Assembly (NCBI GenBank): GCA_942490765.1
Contig: CALNYM010000011.1
Location: forward strand, 36,829-76,828
Direction: 5' to 3'
DNA: 40,000 nucleotides
Origin: an uncultured Desulfobacterales bacterium
Lineage (GTDB): Bacteria; Desulfobacterota; Desulfobacteria; Desulfobacterales; 4572-123
Position 1 is the first letter of the stretch, and every line of letters starts with the position of its first letter. The translations under genes and the position numbers were made by a program. This document shows positions 3,055-32,745 of this stretch, piece after piece. Under the pieces are notes generated by a model, which worked only from the letters and a program-made list of their open reading frames with translations, had not been told where the DNA came from and searched no databases.

Positions 3055-3969
3055 TTATTCGGCGACCAGTGTTTCCGGAAATCCCGGTGCCCGCAAAGGC
3101 TGCCGGCAGGCATCTTCCAGCATTTTAACCACTTTGGGCGACCACGCATCACCGCCGAACAAATTGCGGGCCCTTTCAAAAATCTGGCGCGTCATACCGC
3201 CCAGTTCCAGGGGAACATTGAGTTTTTCCGCGATTTTACCTGCAAATCGCAGGTCCTTGCAGGCCAGGTCCATGGTGAAATTTACGTTATAGCTGCCGCT
3301 GAGAATAAGTTGAGATTCGGTTTCATGGACAAAACTGTTACCCGAACTGGCCCGAATCGCTTTGTATGCAGCCCCCAGGTCCACCCCCTGTCTGGCTGCC
3401 AGCATCATGCCTTCCCCGGCGGCCACCAGATGAATAAACGCCAGCATGTTGGTGACCACTTTGACAACGCTGGCATTGCCGACGACACCCAGGTGGATCA
3501 CCTCTTTGCCCATTACTTCGAGGATGGGTTTAAACCGTTCATACACAGTGATGTCACCGCCGACGAGCACGGTGATGTCGCCGGTATGGGCCAGGTGCAC
3601 GCCGCCTGTCACCGGACATTCAAGCACGTCTAAGCCTTTCTCCCGGGCAATTTGTGCCAGACGCTGGATATCTTCAAAATCGGTGGTGCTCATTTCGATC
3701 CAGCAGCTGCCCTGCATCAGGTGGTCAAAAACACCCCCCGCACGCTCCACCACGGCCCGGGAAGCCTCGGGTGAGGGCAATGCCGTTATCACCACCGCTG
3801 CTGCATGGCATACCCCGGCGATATCATCAGACCATCTGGCGCCGGCTTCGATCAGACCGACACCGACTTCAGGGTGAAGGTCGCTGACGGTCACATCGTG
3901 GCCGGCCCTGACCAGGTTCAAGGCCAGGGGATACCCCAGATTGCCCAATCCGATAAATCCGATTTTCAT
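3055..3969 (-). CDS. NAD(P)-dependent beta-hydroxyacid dehydrogenase (3-hydroxyisobutyrate dehydrogenase / 6-PGDH-like family)
   Basis: 304-aa ORF with the N-terminal Rossmann fold MKIGFIGLGNLGYPLALNLVRAGHDVTV. The overall layout is typical of the HIBADH family. Confidence 0.85.
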   Translation of the reverse strand: MKIGFIGLGNLGYPLALNLVRAGHDVTVSDLHPEVGVGLIEAGARWSDDIAGVCHAAAVVITALPSPEASRAVVERAGGVFDHLMQGSCWIEMSTTDFEDIQRLAQIAREKGLDVLECPVTGGVHLAHTGDITVLVGGDITVYERFKPILEVMGKEVIHLGVVGNASVVKVVTNMLAFIHLVAAGEGMMLAARQGVDLGAAYKAIRASSGNSFVHETESQLILSGSYNVNFTMDLACKDLRFAGKIAEKLNVPLELGGMTRQIFERARNLFGGDAWSPKVVKMLEDACRQPLRAPGFPETLVAE

Positions 3970-6602: not shown

Positions 6603-6631
6603 CGTTAAGTTACCTCACAGAAGCATTGCTG

Positions 6632-7456: not shown

Positions 7457-7469
7457 CGAAGCCTTCTCC

Positions 7470-8432: not shown

Positions 8433-8445
8433 TTTTTCACCGTTT

Positions 8446-12187: not shown

Positions 12188-12519
12188 TGGTTCCTCCTCT
12201 ACTTTTTAGGTTTAACGTTCAATGTGAAATCAACTTGCCGGTTTTTAAAAAAACGCAATTTTGAGTTGTTGATTACTTTTAGCAACATCAGATTTGAATT
12301 GATGGTTTTAGCTCAACTTCTATGGGGCCATAAGATTTTGAATTAATGTCAGATAGTATACAATAGGTTCGATCAAAAGTATATAAATTTTTTATTTAAT
12401 ATAAAATCAATAGCTTGTATCGAAAAGAAGAACTTTCCATTTTTTCGAAAGGCCCTGGCCCGCCGGCGCATCATGGGCGACTGTGGGGCCCTGGCCAGAA
12501 CAGCAAGGAACCAGCCTGT

Positions 12520-15575: not shown

Positions 15576-16579
15576 CCATCCGTTCCGGATCCAGGGTGGG
15601 TGGGAAGGGTCTTGCCGGTTTTTTCCGCCAGGATGACCTTTTCCAGTTCCATGAGGATCGGCAGCATCTCCCCGACAAGGCCGACATGGGCAATCTGAAA
15701 GATCGGGGCTTTGGGGTCTGTATTGATGGCCACGATAAAGTCACTGGCGCTGATTCCGGCAGTGAAAACAGCGCTGCCGGAAACACCGGCTATAATACAG
15801 AGCCTTGGTGACAGGATCAAGCCGGAAGCACCGATCAGGCGGTTCATGTCGGTCCAGGCGTTCATCACCACCGGACGGCTGGCGCCCAACCCAGCTCCGA
15901 TACGGGCGGCAATCCCTTTGATACGTTCCACGGTTGCTTTATCGCTTGCCCCCTGACCCACGACAATCACCAGATCCGCATCTGCCAGACCGGTATTGGA
16001 TTGGTCCGGAATGGTCACGGTTGTCTTCAGCCAATCGCATTGCGCCTCGTTCAGTGTGATGATTTCCGTGTGGTGATCTTGCAGCGGGACCATTCGCATC
16101 GGCCGGCACGGCTGTTTTGCCATTGCCAGACAATAGGGGGGCTGGGTCAGTATAAATGTCGCTCTTAAATTGTTTCCATACACCGGTTTTGTGACCTTGA
16201 CCGTATCACGTGCCGGACAATAGGATAGGGTCTGAAGACAGGCGCTTCCGTTGAGCCGATGGGCCAGACGCGTGGCCAGTTCCTGGCCCAGTCCACCACT
16301 GGGAAACAGGATCAGGTCCATGGGAAAGCGGTCTGTTAATTGTAACAGTAATTGCAGATACGATTCGGGTAAAGGGGCATCATGCTTGACGGCCACCAGC
16401 TTGACGGCTGACAGTGAACAGTCTAACTCGGGAAGAGATACGGGCGGTGGCCCCTTGTAAAAGAGCCACAGGGCCACACTGTGAAAACGGGGGGCACTGT
16501 CCTTGAGGCGTGCATTGATATCACCGGTCTGCTGCTGTATGGAGGCACTGTCCAGGAACATCACAATGGCGGCTTTCAT
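15572..16579 (-). CDS. etfA: Electron transfer flavoprotein alpha subunit (EtfA/FixB-like)
   Basis: 335 aa. The C-terminal ETF-alpha FAD-binding signature region is PRLCIIAGVSGSAVFTAGISASDFIVAINTDPKAPIFQIAHVGLVGE. Confidence 0.75.
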   Translation of the reverse strand: MKAAIVMFLDSASIQQQTGDINARLKDSAPRFHSVALWLFYKGPPPVSLPELDCSLSAVKLVAVKHDAPLPESYLQLLLQLTDRFPMDLILFPSGGLGQELATRLAHRLNGSACLQTLSYCPARDTVKVTKPVYGNNLRATFILTQPPYCLAMAKQPCRPMRMVPLQDHHTEIITLNEAQCDWLKTTVTIPDQSNTGLADADLVIVVGQGASDKATVERIKGIAARIGAGLGASRPVVMNAWTDMNRLIGASGLILSPRLCIIAGVSGSAVFTAGISASDFIVAINTDPKAPIFQIAHVGLVGEMLPILMELEKVILAEKTGKTLPTHPGSGTDG

Positions 16580-17400
16580 CGGTTCAACCTGTTTTTAAGA
16601 TAGTGATCATAGAGGTGCCGGACCATCTGATGGGGGTTCTGGCCGTCGATAAAAACACAGGCCTGTTTTGTCTTGGGGCGCTCGAGATCCACAAGGGTTT
16701 TCCCTTTTGGGCGTATGCTGTTGTCGCCGACGGTCAGGTCCCTGCCTGGCACGATGGTTACCTGCCTTTTTTTCGCAGCCAGTTTCTGTTTCAGTGTGGG
16801 AAGGCGCAGACAGGGTGCGTCCAGGGACTGGCCGATGGTCAGCACCAGCGGCAGCCTGACGGTTTGCACCAGAACCGCGCCGTCAATCCGGCTCTCTACT
16901 GTCAACCGGTCCGGTTCGTCTGTCCTGATCACCCGGGTCACTTCGCGAATACAGGGCCACCCAAGCTGTTCTGCAATCAACAGCCCGGTCTGCCAGTTGT
17001 CGCCATCCCCGCCCTGGATGCCTGAAAAAACAAGCTCGTGGCCGTTTCGCCGGATATATTCGGCTATCAGAAAGGAGATACCGGATGGATTGAACCTCAG
17101 GTCCAGGTCCGCGCTGCACTGAATTCTTACGGCATGGTCATACCCGATGGCCATCAGGTGCCTGAGGAACAGGTCTCCCTGCGGGTCATCCACGGTCAGG
17201 GCGGTAAGGTCTGCCGTGTCCGGCAGGTGTCCTGATGGCTGTGAGAGGGTGAGCGCCATTTCCAATGCACTTTCGTCAAAGCAGTTGAATATCCGCCTGA
17301 CAAAACCGGTATCGACACAATGACGCTCATCCCAGGTCCAGTCCTTTTCGGACAACCTTGCGTAATCGGCTATGATCTTGAAACAAACGATGATTTTCAT
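16576..17400 (-). CDS. etfB: Electron transfer flavoprotein beta subunit (EtfB/FixA-like), divergent
   Basis: 274 aa. It has the MKIIVCFKIIAD N-terminus typical of ETF-beta and is adjacent to and coupled with etfA. Confidence 0.7.
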   Translation of the reverse strand: MKIIVCFKIIADYARLSEKDWTWDERHCVDTGFVRRIFNCFDESALEMALTLSQPSGHLPDTADLTALTVDDPQGDLFLRHLMAIGYDHAVRIQCSADLDLRFNPSGISFLIAEYIRRNGHELVFSGIQGGDGDNWQTGLLIAEQLGWPCIREVTRVIRTDEPDRLTVESRIDGAVLVQTVRLPLVLTIGQSLDAPCLRLPTLKQKLAAKKRQVTIVPGRDLTVGDNSIRPKGKTLVDLERPKTKQACVFIDGQNPHQMVRHLYDHYLKNRLNR

Positions 17401-18854
17401 TTGTCCATGGGATAGATGGTTCCTGCGTTCATGATGCCGTTGGGATCAAATTGATCCTTTAACCCTTTCAAAATATAATAGGCTGATCCGTGCTCAATTT
17501 TAGTCCAGGGGGTCCGGTATTTGCCGATGCCATGGTGGTGCACCATCGAGCCCCCGACCTTCAGGGTTTCCTCCACAATCAACGCATTTAACGGAATGTG
17601 GTACTTGGTGATCTCTTCCTCCGGTTTGCAGTCTTTGACATCGTAGTCATAGACAAAGTACAGATTGGTACCGGTCTGGTAGCTGTGGGAAGAATGTCCG
17701 CCCAGCATGGTCAGATCGTCCGCATGGGGGAAATCCGACCGGATCCGTTGGATGGCGTTTTCATAGATGGTGTTGATCGTATCCCAGTTGCCCGAGACTT
17801 CCGTGGTGAACCCGATGTGATGGTTTTTGCGGATGAGTTCACGTTCTTCGGCAATTTTATCCGGTCCCCAGCACAGATGGTTGAACCAGTTCTCGACAAT
17901 TCGACTGTCAATGCGCCGGCATTCCGCGTAGTTGTCGACAATCTCTTCGATTCCCCGGGCCGTGGCCTCGGCCAGGTGTTTATTGCCCTCTGCCAGGAAC
18001 ATCAGAACGCACTGGTCGGGTGCAAACTGATCGAAACTGTGCTGGGTGCCGTCTTCCGCATCGTAAAGGCGCGCCATCGAAGGGCGATACCCATGGACCA
18101 TGACTTCCCGCAGGATCTCAAACCCTTTTTCCATGGAATCCAGCCGCCAGGCCAGGAACTGGTTGTTTTCCGGGAAATACTTGAAAATTTTAACGGTGAC
18201 TTCGGTAATAAAGCACAGTGCCCCTTCATTGCCGATGATCACGTGGCGGATATCCGGGCCGCATGAACGGCGGGGAACGTTTTTAATCCGGGTGATCTCA
18301 CCGTTGGGGAACACGGCTTCCAGTCCGACGACCATATCTTCGATGGCGCCATAGAGGGTGGAAAACTGCCCGATGCTGCGGGTGGCCACCAGGCCGCCCA
18401 TATGGGCCAACGGTTTTGACTGGGGAGAATGGCCGGTGGTATACCCCTGTTCCCGGAGCCGGTCTTCCAGATCACCTAAAACCACACCGCACTGGGTCGT
18501 TGCCAACATATTGGTGGGATCGATCTTGATGATCTGGTTCATCTGTGACCCGTCAAGCACCACGGAATTTTCAACGATGGTTTCCAGGCCCCCCTCCGTG
18601 GCGGTGCCCCCGGTGCGGGCCACGGAATTGATTTGATTCTGGTTCAGGAAGGTCAACACATCTGCGACCTGCTTCGCGTCTGCCAGCTTGACCACGGCCG
18701 CAGGGATCGGGGTGGTATAAACACCGAATATTGTTTCGTATTTTTTATACCGATCATGGCTGTTTTCCTCTAGCACCCTGGCATCGGTGATCACGCGCTG
18801 CTCACCGACAATGGTTTTGAGCTGATCGACAATCGCTTCACGGGTCAATGTCAT
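17397..18854 (-). CDS. FAD-linked oxidase resembling the alkyl-DHAP-synthase-like branch of the GlcD superfamily
   Basis: 485 aa. GHSPQSKPLAHMGGLVATRSIGQFSTLYGAIEDMVVGLEAVFPNGE resembles the AGPS-type motif GH.P.S....GG.v.TR..G....YG.IED.V. Confidence 0.8.
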   Translation of the reverse strand: MTLTREAIVDQLKTIVGEQRVITDARVLEENSHDRYKKYETIFGVYTTPIPAAVVKLADAKQVADVLTFLNQNQINSVARTGGTATEGGLETIVENSVVLDGSQMNQIIKIDPTNMLATTQCGVVLGDLEDRLREQGYTTGHSPQSKPLAHMGGLVATRSIGQFSTLYGAIEDMVVGLEAVFPNGEITRIKNVPRRSCGPDIRHVIIGNEGALCFITEVTVKIFKYFPENNQFLAWRLDSMEKGFEILREVMVHGYRPSMARLYDAEDGTQHSFDQFAPDQCVLMFLAEGNKHLAEATARGIEEIVDNYAECRRIDSRIVENWFNHLCWGPDKIAEERELIRKNHHIGFTTEVSGNWDTINTIYENAIQRIRSDFPHADDLTMLGGHSSHSYQTGTNLYFVYDYDVKDCKPEEEITKYHIPLNALIVEETLKVGGSMVHHHGIGKYRTPWTKIEHGSAYYILKGLKDQFDPNGIMNAGTIYPMDK

Positions 18855-18913
18855 GATAAATCCTTTTTTACGTATGATTGGTAAATAAACCTGTTTTTAT
18901 CCGTTCATTCTTT

Positions 18914-19690
18914 TTATCGTACCATATAGCCTCCGTCAACAATGAGCACCTGGCCATTCAAATAGTCGGAGGCCCGGCTGGCCAGAAACACGACCGTTCC
19001 CATCAGGTCCTGGCGTTCACCCCAGCGATTGGCGGGGATACGATCGAGGACCCGTTGATTGGTTACCGGATTGCTCCTGGTCCGGGTTGTCATGTCGGTG
19101 GCATAATAGCCCGGTGCAATGCCGTTTACCTGGATATCGTATTGTGCCAGTTCATCGCCGTAGGACTTGGTCAGCCCTGCGAGGCCATGTTTTGTCGCCG
19201 CATAGGCCGGACCGTCCCGTCCTCCCAGGTAAGAATAGAGGCTGCAGATATTGATTATCTTACCGCTTTTCTGGGGGATCATTATCTTGGCCGCTTCATG
19301 ACTCAGCTCGAATGCGGCTGTCAGGTTGACGGCCACCATGGGATCCCAGTCAGCTCGGCCAAATTCCAATACAGGCTTCAACCGGCTGATACCGGCATTG
19401 TTGACCAGAATGTCCAGGCTGCCGAGTTTTTCCAGGCAGGTTTCAATGATCTGCTTCGGTGCGCCGTTCCCCGTGATGTCAATTTCCATCAATTCAACGG
19501 CCACACCCTGTTTTTCAATTAATTGCCGGGTTTCGCCATTATCCGTGACATAACTGGGAATGAAAAGATTGGCGCCGGCTTTTGCCAGGGCAGCTGAAAA
19601 CGCCAGCCCCAATCCTCTGTTGCCGCCTGTCACAATGGCTGTTTTCCCTTTCAGGGAAAAAAAATCCAATGAAAAATCATCTATTTCCAA
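18914..19690 (-). CDS. Short-chain dehydrogenase/reductase (KduD / gluconate-5-dehydrogenase-like)
   Basis: 258 aa with TGGNRGLG cofactor motif and YAATKHG catalytic YxxxK. It has a TTG start with GAGGAG 9 nt upstream. Confidence 0.85.
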   Translation of the reverse strand: MEIDDFSLDFFSLKGKTAIVTGGNRGLGLAFSAALAKAGANLFIPSYVTDNGETRQLIEKQGVAVELMEIDITGNGAPKQIIETCLEKLGSLDILVNNAGISRLKPVLEFGRADWDPMVAVNLTAAFELSHEAAKIMIPQKSGKIINICSLYSYLGGRDGPAYAATKHGLAGLTKSYGDELAQYDIQVNGIAPGYYATDMTTRTRSNPVTNQRVLDRIPANRWGERQDLMGTVVFLASRASDYLNGQVLIVDGGYMVR

Positions 19691-19767
19691 TGGCTTGAAC
19701 TCCTCTTAAAAGGTTTTTAAGGGTAACCGACACGATCATCAGCCCCATCATTATGTCCTGCATGGTG

Positions 19768-19929
19768 TCATACCACGCCCGGATAATCGATCTCTTTAGC
19801 GACGCCTGCATCACTGATCAGGACGACGTTCCTGGATTCCGTTAATGCAGAAATTTCATCTCCCATCTGTTCGACGCGATCAATCCCGAAGGAGATGTTG
19901 CCAACCCCTGGAAAAGTAAATGGAAGCAT
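19768..19929 (-). pseudogene. Remnant of an iron-containing alcohol dehydrogenase (N-terminal 53 codons only)
   Basis: Below the ORF-track size cutoff. Hand translation gives MLPFTFPGVGNISFGIDRVEQMGDEISALTESRNVVLISDAGVAKEIDYPGVV*, which matches the Fe-ADH N-terminal pattern (F.P..I.FG.g....g.e......v.lv.D.gv.k). Full-length family members are much longer, so this is truncated. Confidence 0.45.
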
Positions 19930-20185
19930 CACAATCCTTTCAAAATGAGCAGGCCCGCCTTTGGCGATTATCCATCCGAAAACGAGAACTTTCGTTCAAT
20001 ATCAGGGTGTACACAAGTTTTATCAGAAATAAATAATTGATATTAAACAGCTATTCTTTGATGAACGCGCAAAAAGTATTTGAGATGGCTAAGTAGAAAT
20101 CGTATATGCAAGGCATAGGGATTTACCAGGGGCGAAGGCAACCATATGGCATGTCGAGTCTCTGGAAAATCCCTAAAACGCAGTA

Positions 20186-20210
20186 GATGGCGATTTTTTA
20201 CGACGCCATC
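20186..20210 (-). terminator. Hairpin overlapping the mttB stop codon (weak terminator candidate)
   Basis: Minus strand reads GATGGCG-TCGTAAAAAAT-CGCCATC (7-bp stem) followed by TACTGCGTTTTAGGGATTTT. The T-tract is not immediately adjacent to the stem. Confidence 0.3.
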
Positions 20211-21681
20211 ATTCTTTGATGCCCAGTTCTTTTTCGGCGCCGTCAACAATGTCACGCACTTGTTTGAGGACAGCGTCTGAAAGTTTCGGCGGTTCATATG
20301 TCTCAAGGATGTGACGAACCGCTTCGCCGGCCCGCTCGTATGCGTCTTTTGAACCGTTTTCTTCCCAGCGGAATCTCATCTGCCGGTTCAGCAGCTTCGG
20401 ACTTGTGGTCAGCCGCATGTGCTTGAAGGTGGATTCGTGGGCGAGATAATCCTTGAAAGGGCCGACCTCCTTGATCGTATCGATGGACAGGGTTTCTTCA
20501 TTGACCTCAATGCCGTTTACCGTCCGTTTGATCATACCGGCCACTTCGTTATCCAATACCAGTTGTGCCAGATCGAAAGTGATGCCCATTTCCAGCATTC
20601 CCAAGCCGTAAATTACGTTGCACCCTGACAACGCAGGCAAGATACCGGTGATGGTCTTTTCATGGCCGGACTGGTAGTCAACCACTTTGCTGTCGCCCTA
20701 TCCACCGGCGGCGAAACTGGGCAACCCATAGTAGCGGGCAAGCCGGGCCACCGCCGCATTGATCATGGCCGTCTCAGGGGCACCCACCGTTGCCGTGGCA
20801 TACTTCAGGTCCAGAGGGCAGGTGGAACTGGCATAAATGAACGGCGTCCCTTTTTGAACCAGTTGGCCCAGAACAAGACTTGCCAGATTTTCGCTGTTTT
20901 GCTGTACCAATGTGCCGGCAATGTGGATGGGGGAAGAGCCGCCGGTCATGGCCATGCCGATACAGTTTAACCCAATGCCGTTTCGGGCCGCTTCGATAAT
21001 GATGTCACAATGGTGGGACGACAGCTTCAAGGGGCTGATGGGACAGGTCACAAAGGTCAGAAACGGTCTTTCCCTGAATTTATCCATACCCCCGGCGATG
21101 GCAGCGCACATTTCAAGAATTTTTCCGCACTGATACCGATCCACCGGACCCAGCCAGTGATGCTTGGTCGTATTGGTGAGTGACGCCTCGGCATTATGCA
21201 GTGCCTGCACCCTGGGGTCTTTGTCATGGGAAAGCATGCAGCGTTCATAGGTTTCCACATGTTCCAGAGAATCGATGAGCCGGGCGGCCATCTCGATATC
21301 GGCCTTGGTGGTTTTGCGATGTTCTCCCGTATAAGGATCGACAAACATGATGCCTTCACCAAAATTGGTGAACGTCACCCGGTTGGCTTCCAGAACCACA
21401 TCGCTCTCCGGTATGCGGCCGTAGGCATGAAACGTAGCCGGCGCCGTCCGGATCGACGCTTCCACCAGGTAGGGTGGCAGGGTAACGACTTTTGTTTTTT
21501 CATTCACACTGGCGCCGGCAGCACCGAAGATCTGCCTTGCCTCTTCGCTTTCCACAAAAACACCGGTGCATTTCAGGATTTCAAGGGAACCCAGGTGTAT
21601 TTCATGCACTTCGTCGTCGGTGAGTGTGTTTAGACTGAAGCCGCCGCTGGACAATTTCCCGGATTTGGTTGGTCGCTTCAT
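20209..21681 (-). CDS. mttB: Trimethylamine:corrinoid methyltransferase MttB with an in-frame UAG (pyrrolysine) codon, 490 codons
   Basis: Track ORFs 20698..21681 and 20209..20685 are in the same frame, and only TAG (20700..20698) interrupts it: ...[50 protein letters not shown]... AGGAGG lies 5 nt upstream of ATG 21681. The product has MttB family layout throughout. Confidence 0.85.
20698..20700 (-). other. UAG recoding site (predicted pyrrolysine, codon 328 of mttB copy 1)
   Basis: The plus strand reads CTA, which is TAG on the minus strand, in the context GGT GGA TAG GGC GAC AGC AAA. Confidence 0.8.
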
Positions 21682-21703
21682 TTTTTCCTCCTGTAGAAGT
21701 CAG

Positions 21704-23098
21704 TTAACTATTTTTTTCGATGGCGTTTTTGACGGCGGTTAGTATTTGATCCATCTGTTCTTTAGTGGCGACAAGGGCCGGCGCAAAGAGCATCATGGTG
21801 TTCATACCCGGCAGGCTGGAGTTGGTTCTGCCCACCAGCACGCCCTGGGCGGCCACATCCGCCACCAGTTTACCCATAAACGCTTCGGAAACAGGCGTTT
21901 TGGATGCCTTGTCCGTCACGAACTCCACCCCACAGAAAAGACCTTTGCCGCGGACGTCTCCAACAATGGGAAAATCCAAAAACGCTTTCAGGCCATTGAG
22001 CAGATATTCGCCTACCACCCTGCTGTTTTCCACAAGGTTTTCATCATCAATGATGCGGGCCGTCTCAAGACCCGCGGCCATGGCGCCGGTACACCCGCCA
22101 TAGGTGCTGATATCCCGGAAATAATTCAACCGTTTTTCCGGTGTCCCGGTATCGAGGAACAGGTTAAAAATGTCATCGCTTATGGCGGTAACCGATAATG
22201 GCTCATAGCAACTGGCAACGCCCTTGGCCATGGTCACCATGTCCGGCGTTACATCATAGTGTTCATGGCCCCAGAATTTTCCGGTACGACCGAACCCGCA
22301 GACCACCTCGTCAAAGATCAGGTAGGCCCCATATTTTTTGCAGATCTGCTGGAGTATGGGATAGTATTCCTGGACGGGCACCAGGATGCCGCCGCCAGCG
22401 ACAATGGGTTCCACGATCACCCCCCCCACGGTGTCCGGGCCCTCTTTTAAAATGACATCTTCCAGGGCGCGGGCGCATTCGATGTTACAATCCGGATAGG
22501 TCTTGCCAAAGGCGCACCGGTAGCAAAGCGGGTGGGGAAACTCGGCAAACCCTTCAGCCATGGGTCCGAAATGCGCTTTTCGTTCACTCTGTCCCCCGGC
22601 GCTCAATGCACCGATGGTGGTACCGTGATAGTCCCGGTCACGGTAGATCACCTTGAATTTACCTTTACGGTCATCGTTGATTTTCGCAAGCTGCCGGATG
22701 ACCTTAAAGGCCTTCTCATTGGCTTCGGAACCGGAATTTGAAAAAAATATTTTCTTTTGATGGGGAAGTTTCTCTGCGAGTTTTTTAGCAAATTTAATGG
22801 CGGGGACTGTGCCGACCGCACCGGCGTAGTAGCACAGTTTTGTCAACTGTTCAGCCACCGCCTCGGCAATACTCCTGCGACCGTAACCCACCACCACGCC
22901 CCACACACCACCGGAGACCGCATCAAGATATTCCCGGCCCCGGATATCTTTTACCACAAGGCCGTTGCCTTCCACAATAACCATCTGTTCCTTGTCTGCA
23001 AAGACACTATGGTCCTTGAGATGATGCCATAAAAAATCCTTGTCCGCCGCAACCATCTCTTCCACATCGTAATCAAGCCAGTTTGTTTTCGGATCCAT
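21704..23098 (-). CDS. Class-III PLP-dependent aminotransferase (omega-amino acid / beta-alanine / taurine:pyruvate type)
   Basis: 464 aa with the DEVVCGFGRTGKFW motif and the PLP-lysine context VTMAKGV. The stop lies 22 nt before the mttB start. Confidence 0.85.
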   Translation of the reverse strand: MDPKTNWLDYDVEEMVAADKDFLWHHLKDHSVFADKEQMVIVEGNGLVVKDIRGREYLDAVSGGVWGVVVGYGRRSIAEAVAEQLTKLCYYAGAVGTVPAIKFAKKLAEKLPHQKKIFFSNSGSEANEKAFKVIRQLAKINDDRKGKFKVIYRDRDYHGTTIGALSAGGQSERKAHFGPMAEGFAEFPHPLCYRCAFGKTYPDCNIECARALEDVILKEGPDTVGGVIVEPIVAGGGILVPVQEYYPILQQICKKYGAYLIFDEVVCGFGRTGKFWGHEHYDVTPDMVTMAKGVASCYEPLSVTAISDDIFNLFLDTGTPEKRLNYFRDISTYGGCTGAMAAGLETARIIDDENLVENSRVVGEYLLNGLKAFLDFPIVGDVRGKGLFCGVEFVTDKASKTPVSEAFMGKLVADVAAQGVLVGRTNSSLPGMNTMMLFAPALVATKEQMDQILTAVKNAIEKNS

Positions 23099-23205
23099 AT
23101 TTCAATCTCCTTATTTTAATTCCTATGTTGAGCGATTAGCTTTACAAACAAGGTTTTTGTTCAGACGCAGGCGCATATCGCTTACCCCATGCTTACCTGG
23201 TGTGA

Positions 23206-24780
23206 TTATTTTGCATCCGGCATGGAAGAGATTGTTCCATCCCAGGTATCCACGAGACCGCAGGCTTCCTGGTCTTCGGGAAACCAGGTGGCGGTGACGC
23301 ATTTGGATTCGGTAAAGAAACTGATACCATCTTTGCCCATCACATGCAGATCTCCAAAAAAGGATTGTTTATGACCGGTAAAACCGAAAATACCCAGTGG
23401 TACCGGGATGCCGACATTGACACCCACCATGCCGGCATCGGTCCGTTTGGAAAATTCCCGCGCGTAATGGCCGTTCTGGGTATAAATGACCGAACCGTTG
23501 GCGAAACGGCTGCTGTTCATCAAGGCCAGTCCTTCCTCAAAATTTTGGACCCGTTTGACGCAGAGTACCGGGCCAAAGACTTCCTCCCAGCCGATGGTCA
23601 TTTCCGGTGTCACATGGTCAAAGATGCAGGGCGCCAGATAAAAACCGCCCTCATGACCCGCTACCTTGGGATTACGGCCGTCCACGATCAGTTCGGCGCC
23701 CTCTTCGATTCCTTTTTCGATCCAGTCGGTGATAAACTTCAGATGGCCCGCGTTCAAGATGGGCCCCATGCCGGTGTCCGGGTCATAGGCAGGGCCAAGG
23801 TTCATTTCGGCTACAAATTTTTTCAGCAGCGCAATCAGTTCATCCGCAATGCACTCTTCCACAACGATCACCGGGCAGGCCATACACCGGGCACCGGCAC
23901 AGCCGCAATAGGCATTGATAATACCCCTGGCGGTTCGCTCCAGTTTTGCATCCCGCATGACCAGCGCATGGTTTTTGGCTTCGGTGAGGGCCTGCACGCG
24001 CTTACCGTTGGCAGCGGCGGTGGCATAGATGTGCTTGCCGGTTTTGGTGGACCCCACAAAAGACACCCCGGCAATATCGGGATGGCTAAGGAGAATCTCG
24101 GCCTCATTACGGCCTGCGGTGACCAGATTGAGTACCCCCTCGGGCAGTCCGGCCTCATGCCAGAGTTCCAGGAGTCGCATGGACGTCTGGGGCACAAAAC
24201 TGGCGGCTTTCAGCACCATGGTATTGCCCGTGGCGATACACAGCGGTGCCATCCAGCCATGGGGAATCATGGCGGGGAAATTCCAGGGTGCAATACCGGC
24301 GAAAACGCCGACGGGGTGTCTGTAGAGAACCGTGTCATATCCGGCGGAAGCGTTCATCAGGGATTCTCCCTTCATCAGGTGGGGGGTCCCGCAGGCAAAT
24401 TCGACCACTTCGTTGACTTTCAGCACATCGCCCATGCTTTCCCGCCAGTTTTTACCTTCTTCCTGGCACAAAAGATGGGTCAGTTCTTCCAGATGTTCAT
24501 CCACCAGCGCCTTCATACGATACAACACCTGAACCCGTTTACTGACCGGGGTGTCGGCCCAGGCCGGAAACGCCGCCTTAGCGGAATGAATGGCCGATTC
24601 GACTTCTTCGGATGTGCACTGCGGCGCCATGGCGATCACTTCGCCGGTGGACGGATTATAGCAATCCATGTATTTTGTTGTTTTTGATTCAAGCCACTGC
24701 CCGTTGACGCAGTATTTCAGTTTTTTGACCGAATTTTTTGAAGACGATCCACTCTCCATAAAATATCTTGATTTCTGCAA
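23206..24780 (-). CDS. mmsA: CoA-acylating methylmalonate/malonate-semialdehyde dehydrogenase (ALDH family)
   Basis: 524 aa. It is colinear with MMSDH/IolA-type enzymes as recalled: GIAPWNFPAMIP, GARCMACPV (catalytic Cys), AGMVGVNVGIPVPLGIFGFTGHKQSFFGDLHVMGKDGISFFT. The start is ambiguous between TTG 24780 and ATG 24759. Confidence 0.85.
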   Translation of the reverse strand: MQKSRYFMESGSSSKNSVKKLKYCVNGQWLESKTTKYMDCYNPSTGEVIAMAPQCTSEEVESAIHSAKAAFPAWADTPVSKRVQVLYRMKALVDEHLEELTHLLCQEEGKNWRESMGDVLKVNEVVEFACGTPHLMKGESLMNASAGYDTVLYRHPVGVFAGIAPWNFPAMIPHGWMAPLCIATGNTMVLKAASFVPQTSMRLLELWHEAGLPEGVLNLVTAGRNEAEILLSHPDIAGVSFVGSTKTGKHIYATAAANGKRVQALTEAKNHALVMRDAKLERTARGIINAYCGCAGARCMACPVIVVEECIADELIALLKKFVAEMNLGPAYDPDTGMGPILNAGHLKFITDWIEKGIEEGAELIVDGRNPKVAGHEGGFYLAPCIFDHVTPEMTIGWEEVFGPVLCVKRVQNFEEGLALMNSSRFANGSVIYTQNGHYAREFSKRTDAGMVGVNVGIPVPLGIFGFTGHKQSFFGDLHVMGKDGISFFTESKCVTATWFPEDQEACGLVDTWDGTISSMPDAK

Positions 24781-25121
24781 AATGTTATATCCCCTTTATT
24801 TTTAAGGTTTTTGTTAAATTTTTAGTTGATCTGTACGGAAGAATGTAAAAAACATGTTTGAATTTTTTTTGTCGAAGATATTGTCTGCATCATTAGGCGT
24901 TGTTAACTACGATGTCAAGTAAAAAATAACCTCAAGCTTACTTTTTCAGTTCATTGTTTTTATTTTTTCTACGTTTTTAGCTTTTTTTGTTTGTATTTTT
25001 ATGATAGATAATTTCAATCTGTTCCATAACAGGCATTTTAAACCAACCTGTGCATCGGCTTGAACCATCTCCGCGGTGGGGAAACAGGTCTCTGTTCAAA
25101 CACTAAAAAATGAGGATTTTT

Positions 25122-25634
25122 ATGGAAAACCGAAAATCAAAAAAAAATATCAAACCACCGGATCTGGTTGATTGCGAAATTATTAATTTATTGCAAAAGG
25201 ACGGCAGAATTTCAAATACCGATATTGCAAAAGAAATCGGCATTTCGGAGGGAACCGTTCGTACCCGCTTGAACCGGTTGATTAAAAACGAGGTCATTCA
25301 GATTGTCGCCGTCAGCAACCCCATCAAACTCGGCTTTAATATCGTCGGGCAAATCAGAATTCAGATAGATGTTGGCAAGATGGAGAATATTGTAACAAAA
25401 TTGAAAAAATTAAAAGCCCTGTGGTTTATCGTTCAGACCACCGGGGGAACCACCGGTCTTGAAGCTGAATTTAACGTCAAGTCTCTGGATGAACTCAATA
25501 CATTGATTTTTGAATACATCAACAAGATAGACGGTGTCATCAAAACCGAGGTCTCCCTGATAATGGATTTTATCAAGCGACGATATGATTGGGGCACCGC
25601 CATGGATGAAAAACAGGGATCCACGGACAAATAA
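25122..25634 (+). CDS. AsnC/Lrp-family transcriptional regulator
   Basis: Track ORF 25110..25634. GAGGA lies 5 nt upstream of ATG 25122. HTH motif: ISNTDIAKEIGISEGTVRTRLNRL. It has a C-terminal RAM-like domain and is divergent from the mmsA operon. Confidence 0.85.
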   Translation: MENRKSKKNIKPPDLVDCEIINLLQKDGRISNTDIAKEIGISEGTVRTRLNRLIKNEVIQIVAVSNPIKLGFNIVGQIRIQIDVGKMENIVTKLKKLKALWFIVQTTGGTTGLEAEFNVKSLDELNTLIFEYINKIDGVIKTEVSLIMDFIKRRYDWGTAMDEKQGSTDK

Positions 25635-25809: not shown

Positions 25810-26123
25810 TCGCCGAGCCTTCAGATATTGATTCACATTGAATAACTTTTGTTAATTTACGGTGGTGGCCACTGATGGTACACAATATCATTTCAGCTCA
25901 TAACCCGTAAACGCCGTGTTCCGGGCTTATACCCAAGCCGTCCCTGTCGGGTCGGATTTCTACCGTCTTAATACGGTGCCTAACTTACCTGAACAAAGGT
26001 CTGCAAAGTATGCCTTTCTTTTGCATAACAGATCGATTCCGTCTAATCGGTTACATGTAATCCCTTCTCACGGATTTTCATGTTATGCGAAAAACAAAAA
26101 ACGCTCTTAAAAAGGAGGAAAGC

Positions 26124-27515
26124 ATGGGAAAAATTAAAACCCGAATGGGCGATGGCTTCAAGGTCGAAATGACCGAAAGCGAAGTCCGAAAAGCCCTGGA
26201 AGAAGGGACTCAGGATGCGGCAGAACGCGCCCGGGTCGAACCGCTGACCCCGGACGATTTACAACAGATTTTTGAAATTTTTGCCTGTCCTTATCGAATC
26301 GTTGGTGTTGAGGAAGGCAATGAAGTCGTTCTTACCTACGACAGCCTTAACACCAAAATCAAGCGGGCCCAGATTTCAGCCAGCAAGATCCAGTCCCTGC
26401 AGATTTGTGAAAGGGCCCTGGGGGCAGACACCCTGGAGCTTGCCCATATCGACTATAGCTATAAACCCGTAAAACCGATCATTCCCTTTGAAAAACCGAT
26501 TATGGAGCAGGCTGTCCTGATCACAATCCCGGCATTGCTCTATGGCGCCATGCCCAACCTGGGGCTCTACAGCCAGCCGGACGGTCCATGCCCCAATCCT
26601 GCGGATCTTCTTCCCCATGGGAAAATTGCCGAAGCCAGGGCATCCTATGAAGAGGCTGCCGAATATGCCATAGCCGACATGGTTTATGTGGGCAGTGAGA
26701 TGTACGAAGCCGGCGCAGACGGCATCAATTTTGATACCACGGCAGCAGCCGGGGATGCGGAATTTTATGCAACCCTCAAGGCGGTGGAGATTCTCAGAAA
26801 AAAATATCCCGCCATGGGCATCCAGATGGGTATGGCCGCGGAATTTGTATTGGGAATGCACGGAGAGATTGAATATAACGGGGTCCGTCTGGCCGGGCTC
26901 TACCCCCACCAGCAGGTCAAACTCGCCGAGGAGGCGGGTGTAAACATTTTTGGACCGGCCGTCAATATCGTCACCAACGAATCGTTGCCCTGGAATATTG
27001 CCCGCTCGGTTACCTGGACCAAAGCCTGTACGGATGTTGCCAAGATTCCGGTGCACGCATGTCTGGGTATGGGGGTCGGCGGTGTCCCCCTGGCCCTTAC
27101 GCCACCCATCGATGCCCTTTCACGGGCATCAAAGGCCCATGTCGAGATTTGCAGGCTGGACGGGTTGTAGGTGGGTGTCGGAGACCCGTGCGGGATGCAC
27201 GCTGCACATGCAATAGTATCGGGAATGGGTGGAATACGCACTGCCGGAGATCTGGTAGCGCGTATGCAACTCAATGGCTCGATGAAAATTGATGCAGCAA
27301 AAAAACATGTCGCAGATAAGTTGAACATTTCTGTAGCGGATATTGCGGATCCGGTGGTGATGAACGAACTCCGGGAAGATCTGGATATCGGCCGCGTCAA
27401 TGAGGCCCCCGGTGTGGCCAAGGGTATTGATGCGAAGTTTCGGATCGCCAGGCTTCTGGACATTAACATCAACTCGGTGAACATATTCAAGGAGAAAATA
27501 GAACGCGACATATGA
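26124..27515 (+). CDS. mtbB: Dimethylamine:corrinoid methyltransferase MtbB with an in-frame UAG (pyrrolysine) codon, 463 codons
   Basis: Track ORFs 26085..27170 and 27171..27515 abut in the same frame and are separated only by TAG: ...[47 protein letters not shown]... AAGGAGG lies 6 nt upstream of ATG 26124. MtbB-family blocks are present (DYSYKPVKP, LYGAMPNLGLYSQPDGP, GADGINFDTT, GMHGEIEYNGVRLAGLYPHQQ). Confidence 0.9.
27168..27170 (+). other. UAG recoding site (predicted pyrrolysine, codon 349 of mtbB)
   Basis: Context is GAC GGG TTG TAG GTG GGT GTC GGA GAC. The downstream frame stays open for 115 codons with no RBS of its own. Confidence 0.85.
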
Positions 27516-27659: not shown

Positions 27660-28313
27660 ATGACGACAATTGAAGTACGCTTTGAAGAAGCCAAAAAAGC
27701 CATCGTAGCGTGTGACGCTGAAAATGCATCGCTGGTGGCGACACAGGGTTTAGCAGATGGAATTGACCCTGTTGAATTTTTGAACAAGGGTTTCATTCCC
27801 GGAATAAATGAGGTCGGAGAGCTTTTCGGTAAAGGCCGGTTGTTTCTTCCCGAATTGATTATCGCTGCAGAAGCCATGCGTCAGGTAACCGATATTATTA
27901 ATGGTGCACTTGAAGCCGCCGGAACGATTTCAAAAAAGGCAGGGAAAATTCTCATGGCCACTGTTCAGGGTGATGTCCATGATATCGGTAAAACCATTGT
28001 GGTGTCACTTTTCAAAGCCAACGGATTTGAGGTGCTGGATTTGGGTCGAGATATTTCCAATGAAAAAATTATTGAAGAAGCTGTGCGGTTTGAAGCCGAT
28101 ATTATCGGTACCAGCGCGCTTCTCACCACAACAATGCCAGCCCAGCAAAAACTTGAAAAAGAACTGAAGAAAGCCGGCCTGAAGGGAAAAATCAAGACGA
28201 TTGTCGGTGGGGCGCCCGTAACACAGAGATGGGCCCAGCGCATCGGCGCAGATGCTTACGCCCAGGATGCGTCAGATGGCGTTCAGAAAGCAAAGCTGAT
28301 GTTAGGCATCTGA
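27660..28313 (+). CDS. mtbC: Methyltransferase-cognate corrinoid protein (B12-binding; MtbC-like by position)
   Basis: 217 aa. It has an N-terminal helical cap domain plus a Rossmann B12-binding domain with the DxHxxG motif (GDVHDIGK). AAGGAG lies 7 nt upstream. Confidence 0.8.
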   Translation: MTTIEVRFEEAKKAIVACDAENASLVATQGLADGIDPVEFLNKGFIPGINEVGELFGKGRLFLPELIIAAEAMRQVTDIINGALEAAGTISKKAGKILMATVQGDVHDIGKTIVVSLFKANGFEVLDLGRDISNEKIIEEAVRFEADIIGTSALLTTTMPAQQKLEKELKKAGLKGKIKTIVGGAPVTQRWAQRIGADAYAQDASDGVQKAKLMLGI

Positions 28314-28463
28314 ACGCAATGGCAATAACCGATTTTAACCGGGGAACCGTACCTGCCGAAAGGCACACGAACGGTTCGGGGAGGAGAATCAGGAGCAAGC
28401 GGTATTTTATTATTTCATTTGTCATTTTTAACCCCCTATTGAACAAAAGTAAGGAGGATGCAA

Positions 28464-29729: not shown

Positions 29730-29739
29730 TGGTGTAATA

Positions 29740-29766
29740 AATGAGGCCACCTTGTGTGGCCTCATT
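29740..29766 (+). terminator. Intrinsic terminator candidate after the binding-protein gene
   Basis: The 11-bp perfect stem AATGAGGCCAC / GTGGCCTCATT has the 5-nt loop CTTGT and begins 11 nt after the stop. It is followed by GTTGCGCTTTTCC. Confidence 0.6.
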
Positions 29767-30158
29767 GTTGCGCTTTTCCATTGGAATTTATCAAAAAACA
29801 GTGGATCTGGGGAATTGCTTTCCAACGTTTCTTGTGAATGTGGGGCATGTCGTAACACGTTTCTTCAAAGGTGCCGGGATCGCCACCATAGTCGTTCAGA
29901 CCCTTTTTAAAGCGCTTGAACGCCAAGTCTCTTTGCCATCTGTTGCAAACAGAACCTCTCGGTCCGAGAAAGTTCGCGGACAGATTTACCCGTCTGTCGC
30001 CTCGTCGACGGCAGTTTTTATCCATCTTTTTCATAATAAGAAAAAATACTTTTTTTATCCCAAGGAAAGCGACTGATTGCTCGTCATTAGCGTTTCGCTC
30101 TACAAACAACGAGGATTCCTCATACCCAGTCTTAGTAACTACTGACCCATGGTGAATT

Positions 30159-30890: not shown

Positions 30891-30938
30891 AGCAGTATAC
30901 TTGGAAAATGGTAAATCAAGCCATAAAGGGAGGCGCAA

Positions 30939-31646: not shown

Positions 31647-31682
31647 CAAACAATTAATGAATAACGGCAGGGGAAAGTATCT

Positions 31683-32720: not shown

Positions 32721-32745
32721 TCAGCAAGAATAAACAGGAGCAGCC

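What the first reader, a model, noticed from the sequence alone, without database searches (positions are those of the whole stretch)
20209..24780. Pyl-type mttB is co-transcribed with an omega-aminotransferase and a semialdehyde dehydrogenase and has no corrinoid partner of its own
The order on the minus strand is mmsA-like ALDH, then class-III aminotransferase, then mttB copy 1. The gaps are 107 and 22 nt, and an AsnC/Lrp regulator is divergent. An aminotransferase plus a CoA-acylating semialdehyde dehydrogenase is the classic route for beta-alanine-type omega-amino acids (amine to semialdehyde to acyl-CoA). A beta-hydroxyacid dehydrogenase (3055..3969) and an AOR are also nearby. One hypothesis, which is inference only, is that this MttB demethylates an N-methylated amino compound whose carbon skeleton is then deaminated and oxidised, rather than free trimethylamine. 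If so, that would be a new substrate class for a Pyl-dependent enzyme.
Basis: inference. Interest (0 to 1): 0.6.

Follow-up and report, generated by a model that had tools for sequence, protein, structure and literature searches.

The report
Pyrrolysine methyltransferase joined to amine-breakdown genes
An uncultured sulfate-reducer-type bacterium has a pyrrolysine-containing "trimethylamine" methyltransferase gene directly behind two beta-alanine/taurine-type amine-degrading genes; similar pairings recur in related bacteria, hinting (unproven) that such enzymes also demethylate methylated amino compounds.

Summary
On the minus strand lie a CoA-acylating (methyl)malonate-semialdehyde dehydrogenase (23206-24780), a class-III aminotransferase (21704-23098) and an intact Pyl-type mttB (20209-21681, TAG at 20698-20700). 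The gaps are 107 and 22 nt with no terminator, an AsnC/Lrp gene is divergent, and no corrinoid gene is adjacent.

The exact trio recurs only in one 99%-identical genome. 76 orthologues of the aminotransferase elsewhere have no mttB nearby. Most are paired with alanine dehydrogenase (taurine/beta-alanine:pyruvate type). A few form an MMSDH-aminotransferase module, one with an AsnC gene.

MttB1 keeps every known catalytic residue of TMA methyltransferase and lacks a carboxylate-binding Arg, so plain TMA use is not excluded.

An independent aminotransferase-MMSDH-Pyl-mttB trio exists in two other families, and its MttB carries Arg at the MtgB carboxylate-binding position. GABA transaminase sits between Pyl-mttB and Pyl-mtbB in three families. 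No MtmB homologue was found in this genome, and relatives have only TAG-free MtmB homologues.

RNA data could not be consulted. The scan reached the same reading on other DNA (e1-2478626, e1-1164635, e1-908474, e1-1164633).

The parts
23206..24780 (-). CoA-acylating (methyl)malonate-semialdehyde dehydrogenase (MMSDH/MmsA-type ALDH), first gene of the unit. The start is TTG at 24780 or ATG at 24759.
   Evidence: TIGR01722 536 bits (cut-off 448.5) and PF00171 467 bits. Translation.
21704..23098 (-). Class-III omega-amine:pyruvate-type aminotransferase. It is orthologous to the Tpa-like aminotransferases that other Desulfobacterota pair with alanine dehydrogenase.
   Evidence: PF00202 296 bits. 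NF005812 480 bits, just under its 488 cut-off. Best solved structure is 3N5M. Orthologues of 64-70% identity are followed by AlaDH in 32 of 76 loci. In Desulforhopalus singaporensis the orthologue lies in a taurine-type cluster.
20209..21681 (-). Pyl-type MttB copy 1 (490 aa), a corrinoid-dependent N-methyltransferase and the last gene of the unit.
   Evidence: TIGR02369 672 bits (cut-off 525). 368 bits to M. barkeri MttB 7XCM, with Gly110, Met249, Pyl334, Tyr364 and Gly372 conserved and Thr111 replaced by Glu.
20698..20700 (-). In-frame TAG read as pyrrolysine (residue 328, equivalent to Pyl334 of M. barkeri MttB).
   Evidence: PylS (C21:157088-157819) and PylD (C21:160259-161068) are present in the genome. 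The same TAG is kept in all 55 Pyl-type homologues aligned.
24889..24918 (-). Sigma-70-like promoter candidate (TTGACA-18-AATGAT) in the 329-nt divergent region shared with the AsnC gene.
   Evidence: Consensus scan (10 of 12 matches). Sequence. Pattern match only.
25110..25634 (+). Divergent AsnC/Lrp-family regulator, the likely controller of the unit.
   Evidence: PF13412, PF13404 and PF01037. A 64%-identical AsnC sits divergent to the MMSDH-aminotransferase pair in Desulfamplus (L086).
20180..20207 (-). Hairpin (GAUGGCG...CGCCAUC) directly after the mttB1 stop codon, with a U-run a few bases downstream. It is a possible end of the transcript.
   Evidence: Sequence. The fold of 20060-20215 has z -2.26. 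The terminator scan did not call it.
26085..27515 (+). Pyl-type MtbB (dimethylamine-type methyltransferase, TAG at 27168-27170). It is the candidate second demethylation step, transcribed away from the same regulatory region.
   Evidence: PF09505 489 bits on the N-terminal ORF. Whole-gene match 665 bits with 1 TAG.
27660..28313 (+). MtbC-type corrinoid protein, the nearest candidate methyl acceptor that MttB1 could share.
   Evidence: TIGR02370 224 bits (cut-off 215.3), plus PF02310 and PF02607.

Best explanation
The three genes form one AsnC/Lrp-controlled transcription unit. Two of them are an older, self-standing module. An omega-amine:pyruvate aminotransferase of the taurine/beta-alanine type makes a semialdehyde. 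A CoA-acylating MMSDH-type dehydrogenase oxidises that semialdehyde to an acyl-CoA.

In this species a catalytically intact pyrrolysine-dependent MttB has been appended 22 nt downstream. MttB1 is proposed to remove a methyl group from a tertiary N,N-dimethyl omega-amino compound (beta-alanine- or taurine-like) through the Pyl imine adduct. It would pass the methyl group to a shared corrinoid protein (MtbC or MttC2) and on to tetrahydrofolate.

The divergently transcribed Pyl-MtbB would remove the second methyl group. The resulting primary amine would then be deaminated and oxidised by the two upstream enzymes.

Shown: gene identities, layout, intact catalytic residues, the Pyl machinery and the comparative contexts. 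Inferred: co-transcription, corrinoid sharing and, above all, the substrate.
For: - Same strand, gaps of 22 and 107 nt, each gene with its own ribosome-binding site, and no terminator between genes.
- The trio stays intact in G004 (99% identity) although both flanks differ. G000 has a roughly 7-kb ETF/FAD-oxidase operon inserted downstream and a Liv transporter inserted between mtbC and mttC2.
- A non-orthologous trio is conserved in two other families, in G040 (L060, L061) and G113 (L178). It consists of a PRK06062-type aminotransferase (35% identity), an MMSDH (TIGR01722 510 bits, 40% identity) and a Pyl-mttB (48% identity). Its MttB has Arg exactly at the carboxylate-binding R312 position of MtgB (PMC13080624).
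- A GABA transaminase equivalog lies between Pyl-mttB and Pyl-mtbB in G002, G139 and G088, and directly after Pyl-mttB in G143, whose locus ends there. These genomes span three families.
- In G004 the order is non-Pyl MttB, Pyl MttB, Pyl MtbB, BCCT transporter, GabT.
- In Desulfamplus and Desulfocicer the MMSDH-aminotransferase module lies beside a DMGDH-like N-demethylase instead of mttB, and in Desulfamplus an AsnC gene is divergent to it.
- Pyl MttB paralogues form at least 8 deep orthogroups kept across genera.
- No MtmB homologue was found in G000 (95.6% complete), and the MtmB homologues of relatives lack the TAG.
- No CutC above its cut-off and no GrdB match were found, although the GrdB model also matched none of the control genomes, so that search says little.
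Against: - MttB1 scores well above the cut-off of the TMA-methyltransferase equivalog model. It keeps Gly110, Met249, Tyr364 and Gly372.
- At the MtgB R312 position it has Phe (M. barkeri has Tyr), so no carboxylate site is evident.
- The 36 lineage-specific substitutions relative to its orthologues are conservative, and none adds a charged residue in the active-site segments examined.
- Its orthologues (65-70% identity) sit in varied contexts.
- None of 76 other loci with an orthologue of this aminotransferase has an MttB or MtbB gene within 6 kb.
- The exact trio is seen in one species only.
- All biochemically characterised Pyl-MttBs use TMA, and the papers found still treat Pyl-MttB as TMA-specific (PMC9842639, PMC13044021, PMC9768040).
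- No transcript data could be consulted.
Confidence: 0.42

Rival explanations
1. MttB1 is an ordinary TMA:corrinoid methyltransferase. TMA is converted to DMA by MttB1 and MttB2, and DMA to monomethylamine by MtbB, using shared corrinoid proteins. Its position behind the MMSDH-aminotransferase pair is a recent, species-specific juxtaposition within an island of amine and osmolyte catabolic genes. The two pathways share regulation at most, not a substrate.
For: - TIGR02369 equivalog at 672 bits, with all catalytic residues described for M. barkeri MttB conserved and an aromatic residue rather than Arg at position 329.
- The exact trio occurs only in a 99%-identical genome, and 0 of 76 loci with an aminotransferase orthologue have an mttB.
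- The MMSDH-aminotransferase pair stands alone in Desulfamplus, Desulfocicer and L070.
- The flanks of the locus are visibly rearranged between G000 and G004.
- Published readings of marine Deltaproteobacteria with multiple Pyl-mttB and Pyl-mtbB genes assume TMA use (PMC8318568).
Against: - It does not explain the independent aminotransferase-MMSDH-Pyl-mttB trio in G040 and G113 with Arg at the MtgB R312 position.
- It does not explain GabT conserved between Pyl-mttB and Pyl-mtbB in three families.
- Seven Pyl MttB paralogues only 40-55% identical to one another are each conserved across genera.
- No MtmB homologue was found, so no known enzyme would demethylate the monomethylamine end product.
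Confidence: 0.4
2. The aminotransferase and an aldehyde-oxidising enzyme substitute for the missing MtmB. TMA is demethylated to DMA and then to monomethylamine. Monomethylamine is then transaminated with pyruvate to formaldehyde, which is oxidised.
For: No Pyl MtmB was found in G000 or its relatives. Class-III aminotransferases and AOR or ALDH genes recur next to Pyl-mttB and Pyl-mtbB. AOR-family enzymes include formaldehyde oxidoreductases (general knowledge).
Against: The ALDH here is an MMSDH-type enzyme specialised for 3-oxo-acids (TIGR01722). The aminotransferase orthologues sit in taurine/beta-alanine-type clusters. The embedded GabT enzymes pass the GABA transaminase equivalog model. 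No methylamine:pyruvate transaminase is known to me.
Confidence: 0.06
3. The TAG is a true stop codon. mttB1 would then be a truncated or decaying gene (327-aa product) of no functional relevance to the operon.
For: TAG is a stop codon in table 11. No proteomic or ribosome data are available here.
Against: The 162 codons after the TAG stay open and align with the C-terminal part of M. barkeri MttB, including Tyr364 and Gly372. The same TAG position is kept in 55 homologues. PylS and PylD are present.
Confidence: 0.02

Closest known systems
Methanosarcina barkeri MttB/MttC trimethylamine:corrinoid methyltransferase (PDB 7XCL/7XCM/7XCN; Li et al. 2023, PMC9842639)
   Same: Same fold family (368 bits). 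The Pyl codon is at the same position. Gly110, Met249, Tyr364 and Gly372 are conserved. The protein passes the TIGR02369 equivalog cut-off.
   Different: It is bacterial. Thr111 is replaced by Glu. No cognate mttC is adjacent. The gene is embedded behind an aminotransferase and an MMSDH. The genome has 7 deeply diverged Pyl paralogues and no MtmB homologue. The methyl acceptor is presumably THF rather than CoM.
Beta-alanine / 3-aminoisobutyrate catabolic pair: beta-alanine:pyruvate transaminase plus malonate/methylmalonate-semialdehyde dehydrogenase (BauA/BauC and MmsA type). Also the taurine:pyruvate aminotransferase-alanine dehydrogenase (Tpa-Ald) pair of taurine degraders.
   Same: The ALDH is in the MMSDH subfamily. 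The aminotransferase is class III. Its orthologues are paired with AlaDH, and in D. singaporensis with an Xsc-like ThDP enzyme, a GntR regulator and a TRAP transporter.
   Different: No AlaDH or Xsc is adjacent here, and a Pyl-mttB follows the pair. Identity to solved beta-alanine:pyruvate transaminases is low (173 bits to 4B98 and 3A8U). That Tpa also uses beta-alanine and hypotaurine is from my memory of the Bilophila literature and was not checked here.
Non-Pyl MttB-superfamily quaternary-amine methyltransferases: MtgB (glycine betaine, PDB 2QNE/9YCE, PMC13080624), MtyB (gamma-butyrobetaine, PMC8604678), MtcB, MtpB
   Same: Same superfamily (225 bits to MtgB). The substrates are N-methylated amino acids, and the methyl group goes via a corrinoid protein to THF. 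As I recall, one corrinoid protein serves several of these methyltransferases in E. limosum (not checked here).
   Different: Those enzymes lack Pyl, act on quaternary amines and stop after one demethylation. MttB1 has Pyl where MtgB has Leu317, Phe where MtgB has Arg312, and Tyr where MtgB has His348.
Pyl-mttB / Pyl-mtbB loci of marine Deltaproteobacteria and the Olavius delta-1 symbiont (Kivenson et al. 2021, PMC8318568; Zhang and Gladyshev 2007, PMC1976440)
   Same: The lineage and gene inventory match: several Pyl MttB and MtbB copies, no MtmB, and a corrinoid protein within about 10 genes.
   Different: Those papers read the genes as TMA and DMA utilisation. In the passages I searched they do not mention linkage to aminotransferases or semialdehyde dehydrogenases.

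Membership tests
Pyl-dependent trimethylamine methyltransferase MttB (TIGR02369 / PF06253) | Profile score above the curated equivalog cut-off | tested here: met
   672 bits against a cut-off of 525; PF06253 304 bits.
Pyl-dependent trimethylamine methyltransferase MttB (TIGR02369 / PF06253) | In-frame UAG at the Pyl334 position, with an open and conserved C-terminal part | tested here: met
   TAG at codon 328 aligns with Pyl334 of 7XCM.
Pyl-dependent trimethylamine methyltransferase MttB (TIGR02369 / PF06253) | Catalytic and environment residues Gly110, Tyr364, Met249 and Gly372 (Li et al. 2023) | tested here: met
   Gly108, Tyr358, Met243 and Gly366 align with them. Thr111 is Glu109.
Pyl-dependent trimethylamine methyltransferase MttB (TIGR02369 / PF06253) | Pyl synthesis and decoding genes in the genome | tested here: met
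   PylS C-terminal domain 337 bits and PylD 244 bits on contig C21. pylT, pylB and pylC were not checked.
Pyl-dependent trimethylamine methyltransferase MttB (TIGR02369 / PF06253) | Adjacent cognate corrinoid protein (mttC) | tested here: not met
   Nearest corrinoid genes are at 27660-28313 and 33921-34550. The genome has about 6 such proteins for 21 MttB-superfamily matches and 6 MtbB genes.
Pyl-dependent trimethylamine methyltransferase MttB (TIGR02369 / PF06253) | Trimethylamine is the physiological methyl donor | not testable with these tools
   Needs an enzyme assay. Context argues for and against (see the report).
CoA-acylating methylmalonate/malonate-semialdehyde dehydrogenase (TIGR01722) | Subfamily profile above its cut-off | tested here: met
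   536 bits against 448.5. The next best ALDH models score 330 bits or less and are far below their own cut-offs.
CoA-acylating methylmalonate/malonate-semialdehyde dehydrogenase (TIGR01722) | CoA-dependent oxidative decarboxylation of a 3-oxo-acid semialdehyde | not testable with these tools
   Activity is inferred from subfamily membership only.
Omega-amine:pyruvate class-III aminotransferase (Tpa / beta-alanine:pyruvate type) | Class-III fold-type I PLP aminotransferase | tested here: met
   PF00202 296 bits. 358 bits to 3N5M.
Omega-amine:pyruvate class-III aminotransferase (Tpa / beta-alanine:pyruvate type) | Named NCBIfam subfamily above its cut-off | tested here: not met
   The best model, NF005812, scores 480 bits against a cut-off of 488.
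Omega-amine:pyruvate class-III aminotransferase (Tpa / beta-alanine:pyruvate type) | Orthologues coupled to alanine dehydrogenase (pyruvate as amino acceptor) | tested here: met
   32 of 76 orthologue loci have an AlaDH of 61-65% identity to this genome's own AlaDH next to the aminotransferase gene. The D. singaporensis locus is taurine-type. No AlaDH is adjacent in the window itself.
Single operon (MMSDH - aminotransferase - mttB) | Same strand, short gaps, no internal terminator | tested here: met
Single operon (MMSDH - aminotransferase - mttB) | One transcript spanning all three genes | not testable with these tools
MtgB-like binding site for an acidic N-methyl substrate | Arg at the MtgB R312 position (carboxylate contact; PMC13080624) | tested here: not met
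   MttB1 has Phe323 and MttB2 has Trp. Arg is present in the G040 and G113 trio clade and in the L035/L044/L055/L059 clade.

The most novel reading that the evidence does not exclude
In Desulfobacterales the pyrrolysine-dependent MttB and MtbB families are proposed to have diversified into paralogous lineages. These would demethylate N,N-dimethyl and N-monomethyl derivatives of omega-amino compounds (GABA-, beta-alanine/taurine- and lysine-type), not only free TMA and DMA.

Together with non-Pyl MttB enzymes they would strip all three methyl groups from betaines. The primary amine would be handed to an operon-encoded aminotransferase or dehydrogenase. The window's MMSDH-aminotransferase-mttB1 unit, with the divergent mtbB-mtbC, would be the beta-alanine/taurine-type instance.

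This would be a new substrate class for the 22nd amino acid.
Probability: 0.45. Interest if true: 0.85.

Novelty: new variant of a known kind. Interest (0 to 1): 0.62.

Why it matters
Pyrrolysine is known from only three enzyme families, all assigned to free mono-, di- and trimethylamine. If Pyl-MttB and Pyl-MtbB paralogues act on methylated amino compounds, several things change:
- The chemistry attributed to the 22nd amino acid widens.
- The long-noted excess of Pyl MttB and MtbB copies without MtmB in marine sulfate reducers and in the Olavius symbiont is explained.
- A complete anaerobic route from betaine osmolytes to central metabolism that releases no TMA is revealed. This is relevant to marine methane precursors and to gut TMA/TMAO budgets.
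- Automatic "TMA methyltransferase" annotations used in such budgets need revision.

The hypothesis becomes directly testable with a handful of recombinant proteins.

Tried and rejected
- Exact-trio conservation: it was found only in G004 (99% identity) among 41 relatives. A scan of GTDB species genomes with the aminotransferase gave 76 orthologue loci, none with an mttB. "The trio is widely conserved" is therefore rejected.
- Remodelled pocket in MttB1: the 36 lineage-specific substitutions are conservative. The MtgB carboxylate residues are not present. Rejected as evidence.
- Enrichment of class-III aminotransferases near MttB-superfamily and MtbB genes in G000 alone: my hand count gives 3 of 12 within about 7 kb, against roughly 0.8 expected. 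This is too weak and too post hoc to rely on.
- TMA-producing enzymes in the genome: no CutC above its cut-off and no GrdB match. The GrdB model matched no control genome either, so that negative result is weak.
- Literature: five full-text searches found no paper showing a non-TMA substrate for a Pyl-MttB. PMC9768040 only raises the possibility.
- Structure prediction and fold search were not run. The tools return no coordinates, so they would not have resolved the pocket question.


Full report
**What is there.**
The window comes from contig C11 of a 4.47-Mb, 95.6%-complete MAG. Its closest relative, G004 (99% protein identity), is labelled "MAG: Desulfobacterales bacterium".

Three genes lie head to tail on the minus strand:
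- 23206-24780 is an ALDH of the CoA-acylating methylmalonate-semialdehyde dehydrogenase subfamily (TIGR01722, 536 bits, cut-off 448.5).
- 21704-23098 is a class-III aminotransferase (PF00202, 296 bits; best NCBIfam model NF005812 at 480 bits, just under its 488 cut-off).
- 20209-21681 is an mttB interrupted only by TAG at 20698-20700.

The spacers are exactly 107 and 22 nt. Both downstream genes have good Shine-Dalgarno sequences. No terminator-like site lies between the genes, and the 107-nt spacer is unstructured (z -0.12). A hairpin follows the mttB stop codon.

A divergent AsnC/Lrp gene (25110-25634) shares a 329-nt A/T-rich region that holds a TTGACA-18-AATGAT promoter-like site.

**Is MttB1 a real Pyl enzyme?**
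Yes. Read with TAG as Pyl, the 490-aa product scores 672 bits on the TMA-methyltransferase equivalog TIGR02369 (cut-off 525). It aligns end to end with M. barkeri MttB (7XCM, 368 bits), with the TAG on Pyl334.

Li et al. 2023 (PMC9842639) single out Gly110, Tyr364, Met249 and Gly372. All four are conserved. Thr111 is Glu here and in most bacterial paralogues examined. PylS and PylD are encoded on contig C21 next to a pterin-binding methyltransferase, and four RamA-like activases are present.

**The missing corrinoid partner.**
This is true, but it is not special in this genome. There are 21 MttB-superfamily matches (7 with a TAG) and 6 Pyl-mtbB genes, yet only about six MtbC/MttC-type corrinoid proteins. 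Sharing must therefore be the rule. From memory, E. limosum also uses one corrinoid protein for several MttB-family enzymes.

**What the two upstream genes are.**
A scan of GTDB species genomes with the aminotransferase returned 76 orthologue loci of 52-79% identity besides G004. They come from Desulfobacterales, Desulfobulbales and Gemmatimonadota.
- In 32 of them the gene is followed by an alanine dehydrogenase, the signature of an amine:pyruvate aminotransferase.
- In Desulforhopalus singaporensis the neighbourhood is: sarcosine-oxidase-like pair, Xsc-like ThDP enzyme, the aminotransferase, AlaDH, GntR regulator, TRAP transporter. This is a taurine-type cluster.
- In Desulfamplus (L086) and Desulfocicer vacuolatum (L105) the aminotransferase is preceded by an MMSDH (TIGR01722, 520 and 528 bits). 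In Desulfamplus a 64%-identical divergent AsnC is also present. In L070 the MMSDH follows the aminotransferase.

The MMSDH-aminotransferase pair is therefore an older, self-standing omega-amine catabolic module of the beta-alanine, 3-aminoisobutyrate or taurine type, in Desulfamplus with the same kind of divergent AsnC regulator. None of the 76 loci has an MttB or MtbB gene within 6 kb.

**Conservation of the trio.**
Among 40 relatives, the exact trio occurs only in G004. There both flanks differ: G004 has no ETF/FAD-oxidase operon between mttB1 and the SBP5 transporter gene, and no Liv transporter between mtbC and mttC2.

Orthologues of MttB1 (65-70% identity; G035, G040, G006, G003, G002) have other neighbours:
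- a class-III aminotransferase plus a sarcosine-oxidase-like pair;
- a DMGDH-like gene plus a corrinoid protein (also seen in G130);
- a non-Pyl MttB upstream and an ALDH downstream;
- Liv permeases.

MttB1 of G000/G004 sits on a long branch (0.37) within this clade. Its 36 private substitutions are conservative, and none adds a charged residue in the active-site segments I examined.

**Why the idea is nevertheless not dismissed.**
1. A second trio built from non-orthologous parts is conserved in two other families, in G040 (L060, L061) and G113 (L178). It consists of a PRK06062-type aminotransferase (35% identity to the window's), an MMSDH (TIGR01722, 510 bits; 40% identity) and a Pyl-mttB (48% identity). 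The MMSDH is broken by masked bases in L060 and split between two frames in L178. Its MttB has Gln for Met249. It also has Arg at the position that aligns with R312 of MtgB. R312 is the carboxylate-binding arginine that PMC13080624 reports as conserved in all characterised MttB-family enzymes acting on acidic quaternary amines. A Pyl residue together with a carboxylate-binding Arg is what an N,N-dimethyl amino acid methyltransferase would be expected to have. A second Pyl clade (L035, L044, L055, L059) lies next to a non-Pyl MttB in each of the four loci and also has this Arg.
2. A GABA transaminase passing the TIGR00700 equivalog cut-off lies between Pyl-mttB and Pyl-mtbB in G002 (L052), G139 (L184) and G088 (L185). 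In G143 (L167) it lies directly after Pyl-mttB, where the locus ends. These genomes span three families. In G139 the run is: non-Pyl MttB, MttC, Pyl MttB, GabT, Pyl MtbB, MtbC, URO-D-type methyltransferase, AOR. G004 has: non-Pyl MttB, Pyl MttB, Pyl MtbB, BCCT transporter, GabT.
3. In this genus another cluster runs: non-Pyl MttB, saccharopine dehydrogenase, LYS1-like dehydrogenase, Pyl MttB, Pyl MtbB. A further one runs: GntR, TAL-like, AlaDH, class-I/II aminotransferase, Pyl MttB, transketolase-like.
4. In Desulfamplus and Desulfocicer the MMSDH-aminotransferase module lies beside a DMGDH-like oxidative N-demethylase. The module therefore keeps company with N-demethylation even where mttB is absent.
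5. The seven Pyl MttB paralogues of G000 are only 40-55% identical to one another, and each has orthologues in other genera. This is unlike the near-identical isozymes of Methanosarcina (from memory).
6. No MtmB homologue was found in G000. The MtmB homologues of relatives have no in-frame stop. Such non-Pyl homologues were recently shown to be quaternary-amine enzymes (PMC13044021). The Olavius delta-1 symbiont shows the same pattern of 6 MtbB, 2 MttB and 0 MtmB (PMC1976440).
7. No choline TMA-lyase above its cut-off was found. No GrdB match was found either, but that model matched none of the control genomes, so the negative result is weak.

If TMA were split off a betaine, the remaining carbon skeleton would carry no nitrogen and would need no aminotransferase. 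Stepwise demethylation that keeps the nitrogen on the skeleton explains these operons directly.

**Weighing.**
For the lineage as a whole, I consider the demethylate-then-deaminate reading about as likely as not.

For MttB1 itself the evidence is mixed. Its position in the unit and the divergent mtbB-mtbC fit the model. Its sequence gives no sign of a non-TMA pocket, and the arrangement is young.

I therefore give 0.42 to a shared-substrate operon and 0.40 to an ordinary TMA enzyme that landed next to a beta-alanine/taurine module. Small weights go to transamination of monomethylamine and to a dead gene.

**Known versus new.**
The papers I found still treat Pyl-MttB as TMA-specific (PMC9842639, PMC13044021). 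Holland et al. (PMC9768040) only remark that Pyl-MttB proteins might have a novel role. Kivenson et al. (PMC8318568) read the multiple copies as TMA use.

Five full-text searches found no demonstration of another substrate. The finding is thus a new variant of a known kind, resting on genomic context.

Earlier notes of this scan on other genomes reached the same reading. I treat these as agreement, not as evidence.

Noticed in passing
L061:3735-5201 (G040), L060:5406-6845 (G040), L178:4876-6342 (G113): This Pyl-MttB clade carries Arg at the position of MtgB R312 (motif LLPCRVAGG-TAG) and Gln at the Met249 position. In all three loci it lies behind a class-III aminotransferase and an MMSDH.
   Followed up: yes
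G000:C23:557346-558809 (L024), with L033, L036, L053, L056, L062, L064, L065, L048: The Pyl-MttB clade whose same-genus members sit beside saccharopine-pathway dehydrogenases has Ser (FSEG) where Li et al. 2023 report Gly110 as 100% conserved among Pyl-MttBs. In G000-G004 the gene order is: non-Pyl MttB, Sacchrp_dh, LYS1-like dehydrogenase, Pyl MttB, Pyl MtbB. This would fit stepwise demethylation of trimethyllysine to lysine.
   Followed up: partly
L184:5350-15652 (G139), L185 (G088), L167 (G143), L052 (G002): Conserved run: non-Pyl MttB, MttC, Pyl MttB, GabT (TIGR00700 above its cut-off), Pyl MtbB, MtbC, URO-D-type methyltransferase, AOR. It is a candidate complete route from gamma-butyrobetaine to GABA.
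   Followed up: partly
window 12520-19929 compared with L013 (G004): G000 carries a six-gene FGGY kinase / FAD-oxidase / EtfAB / SDR block and an Fe-ADH remnant between mttB1 and the SBP5 gene. G004 lacks this block. G000 also has the Liv ABC transporter (28458-33780) between mtbC and mttC2, where G004 has none. The locus is a rearrangement hot spot.
   Followed up: partly
G000:C23:555925-557302 (L024): A Pyl-mtbB is split into two frames with a TGA at the junction. The cause may be a frameshift, a pseudogene or an assembly error. The G004 copy (L033) also appears as two ORFs, but those are split at the expected Pyl TAG.
   Followed up: no
window 10598-12187 and 4938-8540; L015, L017, L037, L040, L068: An Opp/Dpp-type ABC transporter (SBP_bac_5 binding protein, 52-57% identical copies) recurs next to Pyl and non-Pyl MttB genes in several genomes. 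It may import the methylated substrates.
   Followed up: no
window 3-521 (minus strand, runs off the left edge; G000:C11:35910-37328): The N-terminal part of a non-Pyl MttB-superfamily gene lies at the window's left edge. It is a candidate quaternary-amine methyltransferase of the same island.
   Followed up: partly
L083 (Desulforhopalus singaporensis DSM 12130) 631-13118: A taurine-type cluster: sarcosine-oxidase-like alpha and beta subunits, a 752-aa Xsc-like ThDP enzyme, an orthologue of the window's aminotransferase, AlaDH, a GntR regulator and a TRAP transporter. The sarcosine-oxidase-like pair hints at use of N-methyltaurine.
   Followed up: partly
G001-G004, G006, G007, G038, G039: Relatives carry 1-6 matches to MtmB-superfamily genes without an in-frame stop. 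These non-Pyl MtmB homologues are possibly MtqB-like quaternary-amine methyltransferases. None was found in G000.
   Followed up: no
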